A stretch of 64,000 nt of DNA, from positions 64,001 to 128,000 of the IMG/VR virus record IMGVR_UViG_3300017963_000201. One strand, 5' to 3'. A program made the translations under genes and the position numbers. The notes beneath the pieces are model-generated. The model was not told the origin of the DNA. It worked only from the letters and a program-made list of their open reading frames with translations, and searched no databases. This DNA is from a virus. Below are positions 6,804 through 16,625 of the stretch, piece by piece; position 1 is the stretch's first letter, and the number at the start of each line of letters is the position of its first letter.

Positions 6804-7196
6804 ATGGAGGACGCAAAAATAATCAATAGTAGTGTTTTTAACTTTGGGCTCATTGGGATTGGTACTACTATCGTGGGTTCCCTAGTTGGTCTTTTGCTCT
6901 TGAACTACTCTTTAGGCTTGCGTATCCAAGACGAGCGTGCTAAACAGGATGAGTTACGTACCCAACTAGCAGATCAACAAAATACAATTTACGACCTAAG
7001 AAGAGCATTGGATAGGACAGAGGGGCGGTTGGGAGTTTACGAGGATTTTTTAATCGGAACACAAGTACATGCACTCAAACGTATGGTGCGGGACTTTTTA
7101 AGGAGCAACAAAGTTAAATCTACAGAAGTAACCTTGCTAGAGTTTGAGCAGTGGGCAAACCAAAAGGTATCTTATCCTGTAGGTATCGGAGGGTAG
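6804..7196 (+). CDS. Membrane-anchored coiled-coil protein
   Basis: N-terminal hydrophobic helix then coiled coil; AAGGAG RBS. Confidence 0.5.
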   Translation: MEDAKIINSSVFNFGLIGIGTTIVGSLVGLLLLNYSLGLRIQDERAKQDELRTQLADQQNTIYDLRRALDRTEGRLGVYEDFLIGTQVHALKRMVRDFLRSNKVKSTEVTLLEFEQWANQKVSYPVGIGG

Positions 7197-11463: not shown

Positions 11464-11491
11464 TTGACGTACCCAAAAACTTTTGTATTAT
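11464..11491 (+). promoter_or_regulatory. Sigma70-type promoter for the ncRNA cluster
   Basis: TTGACG-N16-TATTAT with AT-rich upstream sequence. Confidence 0.7.
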
Positions 11492-11600: not shown

Positions 11601-11657
11601 TTAATGTGCCCTTGTTCCGGTAACGCTAGGCACGGGACCCTAACAAGGGTAGCCTTT

Positions 11658-11794
11658 GGGCAAATGCTGTATGGCACTCCATAGCTTATATAAGTTCGAA
11701 TCTTATTATACCCTTCGGGGTATATAGCCTAACTGGTAAGGCAGCTTCTTATAAAGAAGCCAAGCGAAAATGTGCCACACAATACTTGTTGCCC
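11658..11794 (+). ncRNA. Y-RNA-like element Y1 with permuted tRNA (anticodon loop UUAUAAA)
   Basis: GGGCAA-ATGC-TGTATGGCAC / GTGCCACACA-ATACTTG-TTGCCC stem encloses T arm (ATAAG TTCGAAT CTTAT), acceptor stem closed by UUCG, D arm and anticodon arm. Confidence 0.8.
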
Positions 11795-11809
11795 TTTATT
11801 AGTCAGATT

Positions 11810-11883
11810 TCTTGCTGAATGCAGTTTATGATTACATTTTTGTGTAAAAAAATCAGATCACAAACTAATCCTTGTCAGCAAGA
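11810..11883 (+). ncRNA. Minimal Y-RNA-like element Y3 (no tRNA domain)
   Basis: TCTTGCTGA-ATGC-AGTTTATGAT ... ATCACAAACT-AATCCTTG-TCAGCAAGA; same internal loop as Y1, Y2, Y4. Confidence 0.72.
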
Positions 11884-11892
11884 TTAATCCTT

Positions 11893-12123
11893 GGGGATCT
11901 AAATGCGCGTCAGGATTACATTGCACTTAACTGTTAATTAAGAGGTTGTTGGTTCGAGTCCAACCTGGCCCATCTCCGCTAGTGGGGGTAGGAATCCATG
12001 TCATAGGTTTACAGTCCCTCCCGTATGCTTGTGGCTTCCGCTCTTTTCTTACCCTCACTTTTATGGGCCAGTAGCTCAATTGGTAGAGATAATATGGTCT
12101 TGGCAAATACTTGTTAGATTCCC
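11893..12123 (+). ncRNA. Y-RNA-like element Y2 with permuted tRNA (GUU anticodon) and nested hairpin
   Basis: GGGGATCTAA-ATGC ... AAATACTTG-TTAGATTCCC; anticodon arm 11926-11942, T arm 11948-11964, acceptor strands 11965-11971 and 12065-12071, D arm 12074-12088. Confidence 0.82.
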
Positions 12124-12980: not shown

Positions 12981-13118
12981 TTACTCCGAATGCAGTAAGA
13001 GATTACATTGCTCTTCGAAAGCCGTGGTTGCGGGTTCAAGTCCCGCTCCCCCGATTTCGGGGGATAGCTCAATTGGTAGAGCACGTAAAATAATCTCTTG
13101 CAACCCTTGTCGGAGTAA
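12981..13118 (+). ncRNA. Y-RNA-like element Y4 with permuted tRNA (UCG anticodon)
   Basis: TTACTCCGA-ATGC-A-GTAAGAGATTA ... TAATCTCTTGC-AACCCTTG-TCGGAGTAA encloses anticodon loop, T arm, acceptor stem closed by ATTT, and D arm. Confidence 0.85.
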
Positions 13119-13133
13119 ATTTTTGGAGGTTTT

Positions 13134-13908: not shown

Positions 13909-13971
13909 GGCAGCGGTAGTGTACTAATCTTTCCCAAAACAGTGTCAAATGTGTCCATGCCTATCGCTGCC
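13909..13971 (+). ncRNA. Hairpin cassette H6 immediately upstream of the Ro60 RBS
   Basis: GGCAGCGGTAG ... CTATCGCTGCC, 41-nt loop. Confidence 0.45.
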
Positions 13972-13999
13972 ATTGTCCTCACAGAAAGGGGAATGCATT

Positions 14000-15553
14000 A
14001 TGAATAAACAAGTCTTCAAAACGACTAGAGGGAAAATACCCGAAAGGGCTAATACCTACAATAAGGCAGGAGGTAAAGCTTATACGAGATCCCCAGAGGC
14101 ATCTTTAGTACAGATGGCTTTGACAGGAACTTTCTATAATACGTTCTATTGCTCCGGTAGAGCACAACTGAACGAAACGATAGATTTGTGCAAAAAGGTA
14201 GATCCTAGATTCGTAGCACAGACAGCTATCTACGCAAGAAGCAAAGGGCTCATGAAAGATATGCCTATGTTTCTTTGTGCTCATTTAGCAAAAGAAGATC
14301 CTAAACTTTTGGAGCTGATCTTTCCACAGGTAATGAGCAATGGGATAGTCCTCAAGAAGTTTGTACACATGCTTAGGTCTGGGGTTGTCGGGCGTAAAAG
14401 TATGGGGACCACGATCAAAAGAGCTGTTACTAATTGGATCCAGAATCGATCTTACCATGGGTTGTTCCGAGACGCTATCGGTGGGGATGTCACGATTGCA
14501 GACATAATAAAAATGGTTCACCCCAGACCTCAAGATAAATCAAGAGAAGCGTTCTATGCTTATTTGATCGGTAAGAAATATAATCATGAATCACTGCCTA
14601 CTATTGTAAAAGAATATGAGGCTTTCAAAAAAGGAGAAACCAAAGAAGTACCCAATGTAGAGTTTCGTTACTTAACTTCTCTGAAACTGGGTAAAACCGA
14701 ATGGACCCAAATTGCCTTGAACGCCCCTTGGCATATGTGTCGAATGAACTTGAATACCTTTGATCGCCATGGGGTATTCAAGGATAAAAAAGTGACAAAA
14801 AGAATTGCCGACAAAATCAGGGACCGCGAATCAATAAGAAAGGTTGGCGTATTCCCCTACCAACTTTTGGCAGCATACAAAGCAGAGAAGGATTTGCCAC
14901 GAGAGATCATTGAGTCTCTGCACGATGCAATGGAAATCGCAACCAAGAATGTGCCCACTGTTGAAGGGAAAGTTGTATTGTGCCCGGACGTATCAGGTTC
15001 TATGCAAAGCTATAGCGTTACAGGGTCAAAAAATTCTAGTATAAAGCCGTTAGACGTTGCCGCTTTAGTTACAGCCGTGGTATTGAGAAATAACCCAGAC
15101 GCTTTGGTTTTACCCTTCGATACAGGATTACACAATATAAGACTCGAACCTAGAGATACGGTTATGACTAATGCAAACAAACTAGGGAGAATTTATGGTG
15201 GAGGTACCTCAGTAAGTGTACCCATGCGGTATCTTATAGACAAAAGGATCAAAGCCGATGTCATTATCTACATAAGCGACAACGAGTCTTGGGCAGATCC
15301 TTATCACCGAAGTACTGCTTTAGAAGGGTACTGGCAACAATTCAAATCAAAGAATAGAAACGCTAAACTTATTTGTATCGACACTTATGTAGAGAAAAAC
15401 GTACAGGCTAAAGATGCTCCAGATGTATTAAACATTGGTGGTTTTTCAGACAACGTTTTTACGCTAATAAATCTTTTTCTTAATGGAAGCATTGGTACTG
15501 AGGGTATCGTAAGCGAAGTCAAAAAAATTAACATGGGAGAGCGTGATGCCTAA
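14000..15553 (+). CDS. rsr: Ro60 / TROVE-vWA RNA-binding protein
   Basis: NKAGGKAY, TGTFYNTFY, AIYARSKGLMKDMP, RMNLNTFDRHGVF, FPYQLL, vWA MIDAS DVSGSM, GGGT, SDNESW, IGGFSD; start at ATG 14000 after AAAGGGG. Confidence 0.93.
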   Translation: MNKQVFKTTRGKIPERANTYNKAGGKAYTRSPEASLVQMALTGTFYNTFYCSGRAQLNETIDLCKKVDPRFVAQTAIYARSKGLMKDMPMFLCAHLAKEDPKLLELIFPQVMSNGIVLKKFVHMLRSGVVGRKSMGTTIKRAVTNWIQNRSYHGLFRDAIGGDVTIADIIKMVHPRPQDKSREAFYAYLIGKKYNHESLPTIVKEYEAFKKGETKEVPNVEFRYLTSLKLGKTEWTQIALNAPWHMCRMNLNTFDRHGVFKDKKVTKRIADKIRDRESIRKVGVFPYQLLAAYKAEKDLPREIIESLHDAMEIATKNVPTVEGKVVLCPDVSGSMQSYSVTGSKNSSIKPLDVAALVTAVVLRNNPDALVLPFDTGLHNIRLEPRDTVMTNANKLGRIYGGGTSVSVPMRYLIDKRIKADVIIYISDNESWADPYHRSTALEGYWQQFKSKNRNAKLICIDTYVEKNVQAKDAPDVLNIGGFSDNVFTLINLFLNGSIGTEGIVSEVKKINMGERDA

Positions 15554-16304
15554 ACTTCATGAATTATTGGCAGTAGAGTCAGATCTAAAAAATCAATTTG
15601 ATAAGATCTTGCAAGAGACTATTGTTACATTCACCAAAAAGCAAGATCATTTTATGGGCGTGCATAAGACTCTAAAAATGATCGATGATAATCGGGCTCA
15701 TGAGGAAGAAGCAGCTACTCAGTACAAAGAGCTTGATGATACCGTAGACGGTAAATTGGACTATACTTGGAAGTATGTTTCCAAGTATATTAATGCGATT
15801 CATCAGAAGGAAAGTACAAACCAAACTGCTAAAGCAGACCTGGTTGTGGAAGGTAAGGTTTTAGCCAAAGACCTTCCTGCCACTTTACTTTTGAGCATGG
15901 AATCGAAGCTAAAGTTTCTTCGTGGGGTCTACGAAAAGATACCCACGCTACAACCCGGAGTAAAGTGGGTACCAGATCCACAAAGAGGTAAAGGTGTGTT
16001 TCAGGCAGAGCCTCCAGAGATGACCCATAAAACGGAGAAGGATCTGAAATCGAAAACTCTGTTTGAGGGTAATAAAGAACACCCACCACAAATTGAAAAG
16101 TGGATGGAATCTTTCGTTGTGGGTACCTACACAAAAGATATGTGGTCTGGTATGTATTCTCCAGCCAAGAAGTCTGAGGTTTTGGGTAGATTGGATACCC
16201 TGATTCAAAGCATCAAAAAAGCCCGTATGCGTGCAAACGATACAGAGGTTTTGAAGACCGAAGTTAATCTTGCGGGTGCGTTGTATAGCTATTTGACAAA
16301 GTGA
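15546..16304 (+). CDS. Conserved uncharacterised protein overlapping the Ro60 3' end
   Basis: MPKLHELLAVE..., NQTAKADLVVEG...LPATLLL.MESKL, EHPPQIEKW, SGMYSPAKK...IKKARMRAN; I recall a similar uncharacterised bacterial/phage family (unverified). Confidence 0.75.
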   Translation: MPKLHELLAVESDLKNQFDKILQETIVTFTKKQDHFMGVHKTLKMIDDNRAHEEEAATQYKELDDTVDGKLDYTWKYVSKYINAIHQKESTNQTAKADLVVEGKVLAKDLPATLLLSMESKLKFLRGVYEKIPTLQPGVKWVPDPQRGKGVFQAEPPEMTHKTEKDLKSKTLFEGNKEHPPQIEKWMESFVVGTYTKDMWSGMYSPAKKSEVLGRLDTLIQSIKKARMRANDTEVLKTEVNLAGALYSYLTK

Positions 16305-16625
16305 ACAAGCTTTGGGCCAGCATCATAATTAGTCTCTGTTGTTAATTTTGTCCTTGGTGTTTTGCCCACAGCTTTAAACCTAAAGACGGATCAATTACTG
16401 GGCATGAATAAAAACCGCGTGCAGTGCGGGTTCAAGTCCCGTTCCGACCACCATATGGTCGGATAGTTCAATGGTAGAACGCATGCTTGATCAGATTCTA
16501 AATCGTGTGCCAGGAAAGATTCGGTACAGGGGGCTCGCTGGATGCCCTGTATCCCAGCACTTGGGTGGGATTGCTGTTGTGAAAAATGGTGATTTTTTAT
16601 AGCGGGCAATCCCATCTCTTTTTAT
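16305..16625 (+). ncRNA. Structured RNA containing a permuted tRNA-like module (16417-16486)
   Basis: GCGTG-CAGT-GCGGG TTCAAGT CCCGT-TCCGACC-ACCA-TAT-GGTCGGA-TA-GTTC AATGGTA GAAC-G-CATGC; outer boundaries approximate. Confidence 0.7.
16563..16624 (+). terminator. Long-hairpin intrinsic terminator
   Basis: GGGTGGGATTGC ... GCAATCCCATCT followed by T6. Confidence 0.65.

What the first reader, a model, noticed from the sequence alone, without database searches (positions are those of the whole stretch)
12981..13118. Y4: UCG-anticodon tRNA split inside the anticodon stem
Seen: the 5' half ends GAGC-A-CG (13079-13085) and the 3' half starts GCT-CTTCGAA-AGCCG (13010-13024). CG+GCT rebuilds a 5-bp stem CGGCT/AGCCG, so the Ro stem branches out between tRNA positions 28 and 29. 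Known: ArgRS generally needs A20, and this D loop (AAUUGGUA) lacks it. Inference: more likely a structural or anticodon mimic than a chargeable tRNA-Arg.
Basis: partly seen in the sequence, partly recalled or inferred. Interest (0 to 1): 0.7.

Follow-up and report, generated by a model that had tools for sequence, protein, structure and literature searches.

The report
Phage Y RNA with anticodon-arm mimic
This 138-base phage gene encodes a known type of small RNA (a YrlA-class Y RNA, partner of the Ro60 protein) shaped like a rotated tRNA. Its extra hairpin, described in print as a "variable arm", behaves across about 130 relatives like a complete anticodon arm, so the RNA mimics a whole tRNA but cannot be charged.

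Summary
Window 12981-13118 (+) is a YrlA-type Y RNA: Rfam RF02553 scores 60.7 bits (E 1.6e-12), below the gathering score because of a 16-nt insertion. It lies 0.8 kb upstream of a phage Ro60/Rsr gene.

The insertion is the hairpin GCU-CUUCGAA-AGC. Together with CG(13084-85)/CG(13023-24) it makes a 5-bp stem with a 7-nt loop. Homologues keep both features.
- In 126 phage and bacterial relatives aligned at fixed offsets, pairs 27:43 and 28:42 are 96% paired, with four Watson-Crick types each.
- 101 of 206 permuted modules have exactly 5 bp plus a 7-nt loop. Other loop lengths give 8-15 and shuffles about 3.
- The loop has the anticodon-loop signature: U33 92%, purine-37 97%, A38 94%, and a free triplet at 34-36.

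The RNA is not a chargeable tRNA-Arg. The acceptor stem is capped by a loop, there is no CCA, and the scaffold is the same for every triplet.

The hairpin itself is published (Chen 2014, Wang 2018), but read as a class-II variable arm. I found the anticodon-arm reading in none of the papers I could search. Earlier notes of this scan describe similar RNAs on other phage DNA. Y4 is therefore a new member of a known family. Function, expression and Ro60 binding remain inferred.

The parts
12981..13118 (+). Whole Y RNA 'Y4' (YrlA class)
   Evidence: Rfam RF02553 match at 12983-13119, 60.7 bits, E 1.6e-12. MFE -57.2 kcal/mol, z -6.0.
12981..12989 (+). Terminal stem, 5' strand (UUACUCCGA). It pairs with 13110-13118 (UCGGAGUAA).
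   Evidence: Fold and Rfam alignment.
12985..12993 (+). UCCGAAUGC, the likely Ro60-contact motif (published motif GNCGAAN0-1G). Opposite it is CUUG at 13106-13109.
   Evidence: Sequence; motif from PMC4201824 section 6. RAAUGC is shared by the other Y RNAs of the window. Binding is inferred.
12995..13005 (+). Upper stem, 5' strand. It pairs with 13091-13101 (11 bp).
   Evidence: Fold and constrained fold.
13003..13009 (+). Conserved YUAY element (UUAC, 13003-13006) followed by the 5' junction linker CAUU (13006-13009).
   Evidence: Sequence. UUAC(U/A)UY or CUACAU precedes the hairpin in phage and bacterial relatives. YUAY is named in PMC4201824.
13010..13022 (+). Hairpin GCU / CUUCGAA / AGC, equal to tRNA positions 29-41. 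The loop is 13013-13019 and the 'anticodon' UCG is 13015-13017.
   Evidence: Sequence. It is the 16-nt insertion relative to the Rfam model. Stem covariation and loop signature.
13023..13024 (+). CG = positions 42-43, pairing with CG at 13084-13085 (positions 27-28).
   Evidence: 96% paired with four Watson-Crick types per pair in 126 relatives; 65-66 of 68 in the unbiased sample.
13025..13029 (+). 5-nt variable loop UGGUU. U48 can form the Levitt pair with A15.
   Evidence: NGGUY is conserved. The 15:48 covariation is in PMC4201824.
13030..13046 (+). T arm GCGGG-UUCAAGU-CCCGC.
   Evidence: Rfam alignment; 99.7% paired in relatives.
13047..13064 (+). Acceptor-like stem UCCCCCG/CGGGGGA closed by the loop AUUU. 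It has no free end and no CCA.
   Evidence: Sequence; 97.8% paired with changes on both sides at all 7 pairs.
13065..13083 (+). U8-A9, D arm GCUC-AAUUGGUA-GAGC (U at position 20), and A26.
   Evidence: Sequence; Rfam alignment.
13084..13090 (+). CG (positions 27-28) followed by the 3' junction linker UAAAA.
13949..15553 (+). Ro60/Rsr orthologue, the presumed protein partner.
   Evidence: Pfam vWA_Ro60 4e-23 and TROVE 1.8e-4. About 50% identity to thousands of bacterial Rsr proteins.

Best explanation
Y4 is a YrlA-class Y RNA of a phage. Its paired 5' and 3' ends form the long stem that carries the Ro60-binding motif (UCCGAAUGC opposite CUUG). Its other end is a circularly permuted tRNA body in the order T arm, loop-capped acceptor stem, D arm.

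Two base pairs equal to tRNA pairs 27:43 and 28:42 close that body. A 3-bp hairpin with a 7-nt loop follows them directly on the same strand with no spacer. The two therefore most likely stack into a 5-bp anticodon stem with a U-turn loop. The Ro-binding stem leaves sideways through two flexible linkers of 4 and 5 nt.

The result is a complete four-armed tRNA look-alike tethered to Ro60. It cannot be aminoacylated because it has no acceptor end. By analogy with studied Y RNAs, it would gate Ro60 or tether it to a tRNA-binding effector during RNA surveillance or repair in the infected cell.

Shown: family membership by sequence and structure, gene linkage to Ro60, covariation of the composite stem, and the loop signature. 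Inferred: expression, Ro60 binding, coaxial stacking, and function.
For: - Rfam YrlA match over the full model, E 1.6e-12.
- Ro60 gene 0.8 kb downstream on the same strand.
- Pairs 27:43 and 28:42 are 96% paired with four Watson-Crick types each in 126 relatives.
- Hairpin stems differ freely while staying paired, for example GCU/AGC, UCA/UGA, AGC/GCU, CGC/GCG, AGG/CCU and GAC/GUC.
- Exactly 5 bp + 7 nt occurs in 101/206 modules, against 0-15 for other geometries and about 3 in shuffles. The branch point shifts (28/29 in 80 RNAs, 29/30 in 17) while the total stays 5 bp.
- Loop signature in 99 non-redundant phage RNAs: position 32 is never G, U33 in 91/99, purine-37 in 96/99, A38 in 93/99, and 34-36 are variable. 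In 32 bacterial Rsr-linked RNAs, Y32 is 32/32 and U33 is 30/32.
- The junction has 0 nt between the hairpin and position 42, but medians of 5 and 6 nt towards the Ro stem.
- 98 of 99 re-joined modules, Y4 included (tRNA-Arg tcg), are called tRNA by ARAGORN.
- A Ro60-like gene is present in 30/48 viral records carrying such RNAs, and in 14/20 of those at least 90% complete.
Against: - There are no expression, end-mapping or binding data.
- The Rfam score is below the curated gathering score (60.7 against 69).
- The MFE fold of Y4 alone pairs UAC-like linker bases with 13024-13026 instead of CG/CG, and the centroid leaves the hairpin open.
- RNAalifold on the 126 rows predicts the T, acceptor and D helices but neither the 3-bp hairpin nor the 2-bp helix.
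- Stacking of the hairpin on the 2-bp helix is an inference from junction lengths, not a structure.
- The published reading of this hairpin is a variable arm.
- 6 of 20 near-complete phage genomes with such RNAs have no detectable Ro60.
Confidence: 0.8

Rival explanations
1. The hairpin is a class-II-type long variable arm, as published for YrlA RNAs. In that reading the Ro-proximal stem is the anticodon-stem equivalent and no anticodon arm exists.
For: Chen et al. 2014 call the stem-loop upstream of T 'V' and equate it with the variable arm, with YUAY beginning the V loop (PMC4201824 section 6). Wang et al. 2018 speak of long variable loops typical of class II tRNAs and say YrlA lacks the anticodon loop (10.1101/312249). 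In hairpin-less Salmonella YrlA the stem does continue towards Ro60.
Against: - The hairpin lies 5' of the covarying positions 42-43, not 3' of them, and a normal 5-nt variable loop (NGGUY) is retained between 43 and the T stem.
- The loop is always 7 nt with U33/R37/A38. From general knowledge, class II variable-arm loops are 3-5 nt.
- Hairpin length compensates for the branch point, so the total stays 5 bp.
- The Ro stem is separated from the 2-bp helix by linkers on both strands.
Confidence: 0.15
2. Y4 is a permuted or split tRNA-Arg(UCG) gene. Processing in the acceptor loop (RNase P, trimming, CCA addition) would yield a two-piece or re-ligated decoding tRNA.
For: The re-joined sequence is called tRNA-Arg(tcg) by ARAGORN. 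M. smegmatis YrlA is cut by RNase P and receives CCA in vitro or in vivo (PMC4201824). Y4 has a 7-bp acceptor stem and sits at the end of a tRNA cluster.
Against: - The acceptor loop is AUUU, with no CCA. Only 11/99 relatives have NCCA there, and many have stable UUCG or GNRA caps.
- One constant D/T scaffold carries 30 triplets. 23 have Ser or Leu triplets with a class-I variable loop, and some triplets are unnatural with A at position 34.
- U20 replaces the ArgRS determinant A20 (identity rule from general knowledge).
- The Ro stem would remain attached inside the anticodon stem.
- No RtcB ligase was found in the record.
Confidence: 0.03
3. A functional sub-hypothesis, compatible with the best explanation. 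The anticodon-arm mimic is a bait or decoy for enzymes that read anticodon loops (host anticodon nucleases, position-37 modification enzymes, synthetase anticodon-binding domains). Phages carry several Y RNAs with different triplets for that purpose.
For: - The triplet is free to vary while the loop frame is fixed.
- The window holds Y RNAs with the triplets AUA, GUU and UCG.
- Positions 36-37 are coupled (UA 59, GG 21 of 99), matching the determinants of t6A37 and m1G37 enzymes (enzyme rules from general knowledge).
- Neighbours include a RlaP-type nucleotidyltransferase and a 3'-5' exoribonuclease.
Against: - There is no direct evidence.
- Bacterial relatives carry many triplets that match no natural anticodon.
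- The link between the Y triplet and tRNAs of the same locus is weak (21/68 against 15.8 +/- 2.7).
- No RNA ligase was found.
Confidence: 0.15
4. The 3-bp hairpin and the CG/CG match are chance features of an otherwise ordinary YrlA.
For: A 3-bp stem plus 2 bp is short. Thermodynamic predictions do not insist on it.
Against: Covariation and geometry controls.
Confidence: 0.01

Closest known systems
[quoted passage not shown] 2014 PMC4201824; structure of the Salmonella tRNA-like domain, Wang et al. 2018, 10.1101/312249)
   Same: Terminal Ro-binding stem with a CGAAUG-type motif. YUAY element. Permuted order of T arm, loop-closed acceptor stem and D arm. 5-nt variable loop with the Levitt pair. 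Gene next to Ro60. A fourth stem-loop upstream of the T arm is reported for 'many' YrlAs.
   Different: Y4 scores below the Rfam gathering score because the model treats the hairpin as an insertion. The crystallised Salmonella RNA has no such hairpin. In print the hairpin is read as a variable arm. Here it behaves as positions 29-41 of an anticodon arm, with the Ro stem branching at 28/29.
Class I elongator tRNA (for Y4: tRNA-Arg, anticodon UCG)
   Same: All four arms, a 7-bp acceptor stem, a 5-bp anticodon stem, a 7-nt loop with U33 and A37, and a 5-nt variable loop. The re-joined sequence is accepted by ARAGORN.
   Different: The order is permuted. The acceptor end is closed by a loop with no CCA. 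A 60-nt Ro-binding stem is attached inside the anticodon stem. U20 replaces A20. The scaffold is not isotype-specific.
Permuted and split tRNA genes (Cyanidioschyzon merolae permuted tRNAs; Nanoarchaeum split tRNAs), from general knowledge
   Same: The 3' half is encoded before the 5' half, and a helix of flanking sequence holds the halves together.
   Different: Those are processed at bulge-helix-bulge motifs into ordinary decoding tRNAs. No such motif, enzyme or free acceptor end is evident here, and the flanking helix is a conserved protein-binding site.
D. radiodurans Yrn1
   Same: A Ro-bound Y RNA with a T-arm-like hairpin. Chen et al. 2014 note a possible 'anticodon arm' with a 5-bp stem.
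   Different: That loop has 6 nt, the D arm is incomplete and the orientation differs (PMC4201824). Y4-type RNAs have the full 7-nt loop and all arms.

Membership tests
YrlA-class Y RNA | Encoded next to a Ro60/Rsr (TROVE + vWA) gene | tested here: met
   The Ro60 gene at 13949-15553 lies on the same strand, 830 nt downstream.
YrlA-class Y RNA | Long stem formed by the 5' and 3' ends, carrying the motif GNCGAAN0-1G | tested here: met
   A 9-bp terminal stem and an 11-bp upper stem. The motif reads UCCGAAUG, with U in place of the first G (motif).
YrlA-class Y RNA | Conserved T-like and D-like stem-loops with a closed acceptor-like stem between them, plus YUAY | tested here: met
   Rfam alignment over model positions 1-114. 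UUAC at 13003-13006.
YrlA-class Y RNA | Reaches the Rfam RF02553 gathering score (69 bits) | tested here: not met
   60.7 bits, E 1.6e-12. The deficit coincides with the 16-nt insertion that the model does not contain.
YrlA-class Y RNA | Bound by Ro60 in cells and modified by tRNA enzymes (TruB, DusA) | not testable with these tools
   No expression or binding data could be obtained.
Functional tRNA-Arg | Free 5' end and 3' CCA acceptor end | tested here: not met
   The acceptor stem is closed by AUUU (13054-13057) and has no CCA. ARAGORN does not call it in the genome.
Functional tRNA-Arg | ArgRS identity set (A20, C35, U/G36; rule from general knowledge) | tested here: not met
   C35 and G36 are present, but position 20 is U. 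The D loop is the family constant.
Anticodon arm (structural mimic) | 5-bp stem directly after position 26 and directly before a 4-5-nt variable loop; 7-nt loop with U33 and purine 37 | tested here: met
   The stem is discontinuous on its 5' strand between positions 28 and 29. Coaxial stacking is not testable here.
Class II tRNA variable arm | Stem-loop emerging 3' of position 44/45 and 5' of position 48 | tested here: not met
   The hairpin lies 5' of the covarying positions 42-43, and a separate 5-nt variable loop follows.

The most novel reading that the evidence does not exclude
The fourth stem-loop of YrlA RNAs, in phages and bacteria alike, is a true anticodon arm and not a variable arm. 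Ro60 would then be tethered to a complete tRNA mimic whose freely varying triplet selects which anticodon-reading enzyme (anticodon nuclease, position-37 modifier or synthetase) is captured. Phages would carry sets of such RNAs with different triplets to sense or blunt tRNA-directed host defence.
Probability: 0.15. Interest if true: 0.8.

Novelty: new member of a known kind. Interest (0 to 1): 0.45.

Why it matters
What the tRNA-like domain of bacterial Y RNAs binds has been unknown since 2014. If the 'variable arm' is in fact an anticodon arm with a conserved U-turn frame and a free triplet, the search for the effector narrows to proteins that read anticodon loops. Simple tests follow: modification at position 37, cleavage by anticodon nucleases, and synthetase binding. 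It would also correct the covariance model, which treats the hairpin as an insertion and so scores such RNAs, Y4 included, below threshold. For this phage, Y4 is one of several Ro60 partner RNAs inside an RNA-processing gene cluster.

Tried and rejected
- **Pattern AATGC..GATTACATT in viral contigs.** It returned only chance matches apart from the window's own record.
- **blastn of the region against isolated phages.** Only the flanking tRNAs matched.
- **Ro60-based locus search in viral contigs.** It gave one relative, L004. That locus carries an array of Y RNAs, one with the same split (UCA-AUGUUAA-UGA + CG).
- **MAFFT alignment with variable 5' flanks (A2).** It scattered the hairpin's 5' strand over several columns. 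I replaced it with a fixed-offset alignment (A3).
- **RNAalifold on A3.** It recovered the T, acceptor and D helices only. The short helices are not favoured by the energy model, and a third of the rows lack the hairpin.
- **The alternative pairing in Y4's MFE fold (linker bases with 43-45).** It is possible in only 34/91 relatives, so I rejected it.
- **Test of whether the Y triplet matches a tRNA gene in the same locus.** The result was 21/68 against 15.8 +/- 2.7 expected, which is weak.
- **RNA ligase search in the record.** No RtcB was found, and there was only a faint RNA-ligase-domain match outside the window.
- **Literature.** Two reviews by Sim and Wolin are not held. The supplements of Chen 2014 are not held either, so I could not inspect their drawings of the 'V' stem-loop.

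Full report
**What is there.** The window is part of a 145-kb IMG/VR phage record. On the + strand, directly after tRNA-Leu and tRNA-Tyr, lies a 138-nt element at 12981-13118. Scanned with relaxed thresholds, Rfam matches it over the whole YrlA model (RF02553; 60.7 bits, E 1.6e-12, gathering score 69). The strand folds far better than shuffles (z -6.0).

The gene at 13949-15553 on the same strand is a Ro60/Rsr orthologue. It hits vWA_Ro60 at 4e-23 and TROVE, and is about 50% identical to thousands of bacterial Rsr proteins. A RlaP-type nucleotidyltransferase, a 3'-5' exoribonuclease, thymidylate kinase and DUF7873 lie nearby. Y4 is therefore a Y RNA of the YrlA class next to its presumed protein partner.

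**Anatomy.** From the 5' end, the RNA consists of these elements:
- terminal stem 12981-12989 / 13110-13118
- UCCGAAUGC opposite CUUG, the published Ro-contact motif with one change
- upper stem 12995-13005 / 13091-13101
- UUAC (the published YUAY) and the linker CAUU
- hairpin GCU-CUUCGAA-AGC
- CG
- variable loop UGGUU
- T arm
- acceptor-like stem UCCCCCG/CGGGGGA capped by AUUU
- UA
- D arm GCUC-AAUUGGUA-GAGC
- A
- CG
- linker UAAAA leading back into the upper stem

CG(13084-85) can pair with CG(13023-24).

**Is it more than chance?** I collected relatives in three ways.
- Two scans of viral contigs used the T-loop-to-D-arm pattern. The second was biased to CG at positions 27-28.
- One scan was blind to both the hairpin and the 27-28/42-43 pairs. 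It used only the linker motif, the variable loop and the T loop.
- A Ro60-profile search of one genome per prokaryotic species gave 80 bacterial loci.

A parser kept modules with a T arm, a closed 7-bp acceptor stem and a D arm in that order. It discarded everything that overlapped an ARAGORN tRNA or looked like tandem tRNAs. This gave 206 phage modules. Of these, 101 have a composite 5-bp stem with a 7-nt loop in the exact tRNA register. Loop lengths of 4-6 and 8-10 give 8-15 each. Stem totals of 4, 6 and 7 give 15, 0 and 3. Shuffled flanks give a mean of 3 and a maximum of 10.

In the blind sample of 68 modules:
- 27:43 is paired in 66.
- 28:42 is paired in 65 (UA 25, GC 19, CG 15, AU 6).
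- The three hairpin pairs are paired in 55-61.
- Off-register controls reach only 13-39.

On a fixed-offset alignment of 126 phage and bacterial rows, the 2-bp helix is 96% paired with four Watson-Crick types at each pair. That is comparable to the T stem (99.7%) and the acceptor stem (97.8%). The whole structure is 94.4% paired, against 63.5% in shuffles (0 of 500 reach the observed value) and 30-46% when partners are slid.

**An anticodon arm, not just a hairpin.** Several results point the same way.
- In 99 non-redundant phage RNAs, position 32 is C, A or U and never G. Position 33 is U in 91, position 37 is a purine in 96, and position 38 is A in 93. Positions 34-36 take 30 different triplets: GUU 23, UGU 10, GCU 9, UGG 6, UUU 6, and UCG 2 including Y4.
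- The branch point is after position 28 in 80 RNAs and after position 29 in 17, but the total stays 5 bp.
- The hairpin's 3' strand runs into positions 42-43 without a spacer. The Ro stem is reached through linkers with medians of 5 and 6 nt, and 4 and 5 nt in Y4. By the usual behaviour of three-way junctions (general knowledge), this favours stacking of the hairpin on the 2-bp helix.
- When the parts are re-joined in tRNA order, ARAGORN accepts 98 of 99 as tRNAs with the triplet of the hairpin loop. Y4 is called tRNA-Arg(tcg).
- The same design is present in 32 of 68 Rsr-linked YrlA modules of bacteria. There Y32 is 32/32, U33 is 30/32 and purine-37 is 28/32. It is therefore a family feature, not a peculiarity of this phage.

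**Not a working tRNA.** The acceptor stem has no ends and no CCA. Only 11 of 99 relatives have NCCA in that loop, and many are capped by UUCG or GNRA. One nearly invariant D/T scaffold carries all triplets. Of the 98 re-joined modules that ARAGORN called tRNA, 23 have Ser or Leu triplets yet a class-I variable loop. Bacterial copies include triplets with A34 that match no natural anticodon.

**What is already known.** Chen et al. [quoted passage not shown] They equated it with the tRNA variable arm and placed YUAY at the start of the V loop (PMC4201824, section 6). Wang et al. 2018 solved the hairpin-less Salmonella domain. They state that YrlA 'lacks the anticodon loop' and describe the longer forms as having long variable loops like class II tRNAs (10.1101/312249).

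The hairpin is therefore in print. The pairing of the two nucleotides before the 5-nt variable loop with the two after position 26 appears in none of the papers I could search. The same is true of the resulting anticodon-arm reading. Two reviews and the 2014 supplements were not available. The data here argue against the variable-arm reading:
- The hairpin lies 5' of positions 42-43.
- A separate normal variable loop is retained.
- The loop is always 7 nt.

Earlier notes of this scan describe similar RNAs on other phage DNA and the Y RNA array of this window. I treated them as leads only.

**Link to Ro60.** A Ro60-like gene was found in 30 of 48 viral records that carry such RNAs, and in 14 of the 20 that are at least 90% complete. 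The link is strong but not absolute. Some phages may rely on the host protein or on another partner.

**Weak points.** Energy-based predictions do not by themselves produce the short helices. Coaxial stacking and every functional statement are inferences. The decoy idea rests only on the free triplet, on the coupling of positions 36 and 37 (UA 59, GG 21), and on the RNA-processing neighbours.

**Verdict.** Y4 is a new member of the known YrlA family. Its 'extra' hairpin is the published V stem-loop, which the homologue data re-read as the distal part of a split anticodon arm.

Noticed in passing
window 11657-11798 (+): Another YrlA-like RNA (Rfam 40.7 bits). Its complete 5-bp/7-nt anticodon-like arm (GCUUC-UUAUAAA-GAAGC) follows the D arm without interruption. 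The Ro-binding stem seems to leave at the variable-loop position instead. This is a different wiring from Y4 in the same phage.
   Followed up: partly
window 11893-12123 (+): A third tRNA-bearing Y RNA. It has a contiguous arm CUUAA-CUGUUAA-UUAAG (triplet GUU) before the variable loop, and an insertion of about 90 nt in the acceptor loop. Rfam's tRNA model hits part of it (11907-11972, 35 bits). It shares GAUUACAUU with Y4.
   Followed up: partly
window 11810-11883 (+): A short Y-like RNA with the GAAUGC/CUUG stem and GAUUACAUU but no tRNA-like body, analogous to YrlB-type short Y RNAs. L004 has a similar short one at about 7020-7090.
   Followed up: no
window 16425-16480 (+): A partial YrlA-model match (30.7 bits) downstream of the DUF7873 gene (15543-16304). 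It is a permuted T/acceptor/D module without the Ro-type stem.
   Followed up: no
99 phage relatives (for example L252:8165-8243, L413:1590-1669): Positions 36 and 37 of the loop are coupled. U36 goes with A37 (59 cases) and G36 with G37 (21 cases), even for triplets such as CUG or GUG whose natural tRNAs have A37. This matches the determinants of t6A37 and m1G37 enzymes but is unexplained.
   Followed up: partly
L413, L436, L461, L463, L406 and bacterial L472, L483, L501: In a minority (17 of 99 phage RNAs and 14 of 32 bacterial RNAs) the Ro stem branches one pair further down, between positions 29 and 30. The hairpin stem is then 2 bp, so the total stays 5 bp.
   Followed up: yes
L226:2275-2460 (+): The sequence after the D arm (GCUUAC) is also perfectly complementary to GUAAGC, which spans the loop and the 3' stem of the hairpin. 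This 6-bp alternative excludes the hairpin. It could be a switch or a coincidence.
   Followed up: no
viral records G001, G010, G015, G021, G026, G049 (loci L177, L268, L292, L326, L347, L398): These phage genomes are complete or nearly so and carry Y4-type RNAs, but have no detectable Ro60-like gene. Many RNAs of this group have a ..CAGCAA.. or GGYGYAG stem motif instead of CGAAUGC.
   Followed up: partly
window 11464-11491 (+): A promoter-like site (TTGACG-16-TATTAT, 10/12) lies upstream of the Y RNA/tRNA cluster. No terminator-like site on the + strand was found between 11300 and 14000, the stretch scanned. The cluster may be one transcript that is processed.
   Followed up: no
bacterial loci L476, L485, L493, L495, L505: Three or four YrlA-like modules sit beside a single Rsr gene. 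Hairpin-bearing and hairpin-less forms are mixed in the same locus.
   Followed up: no
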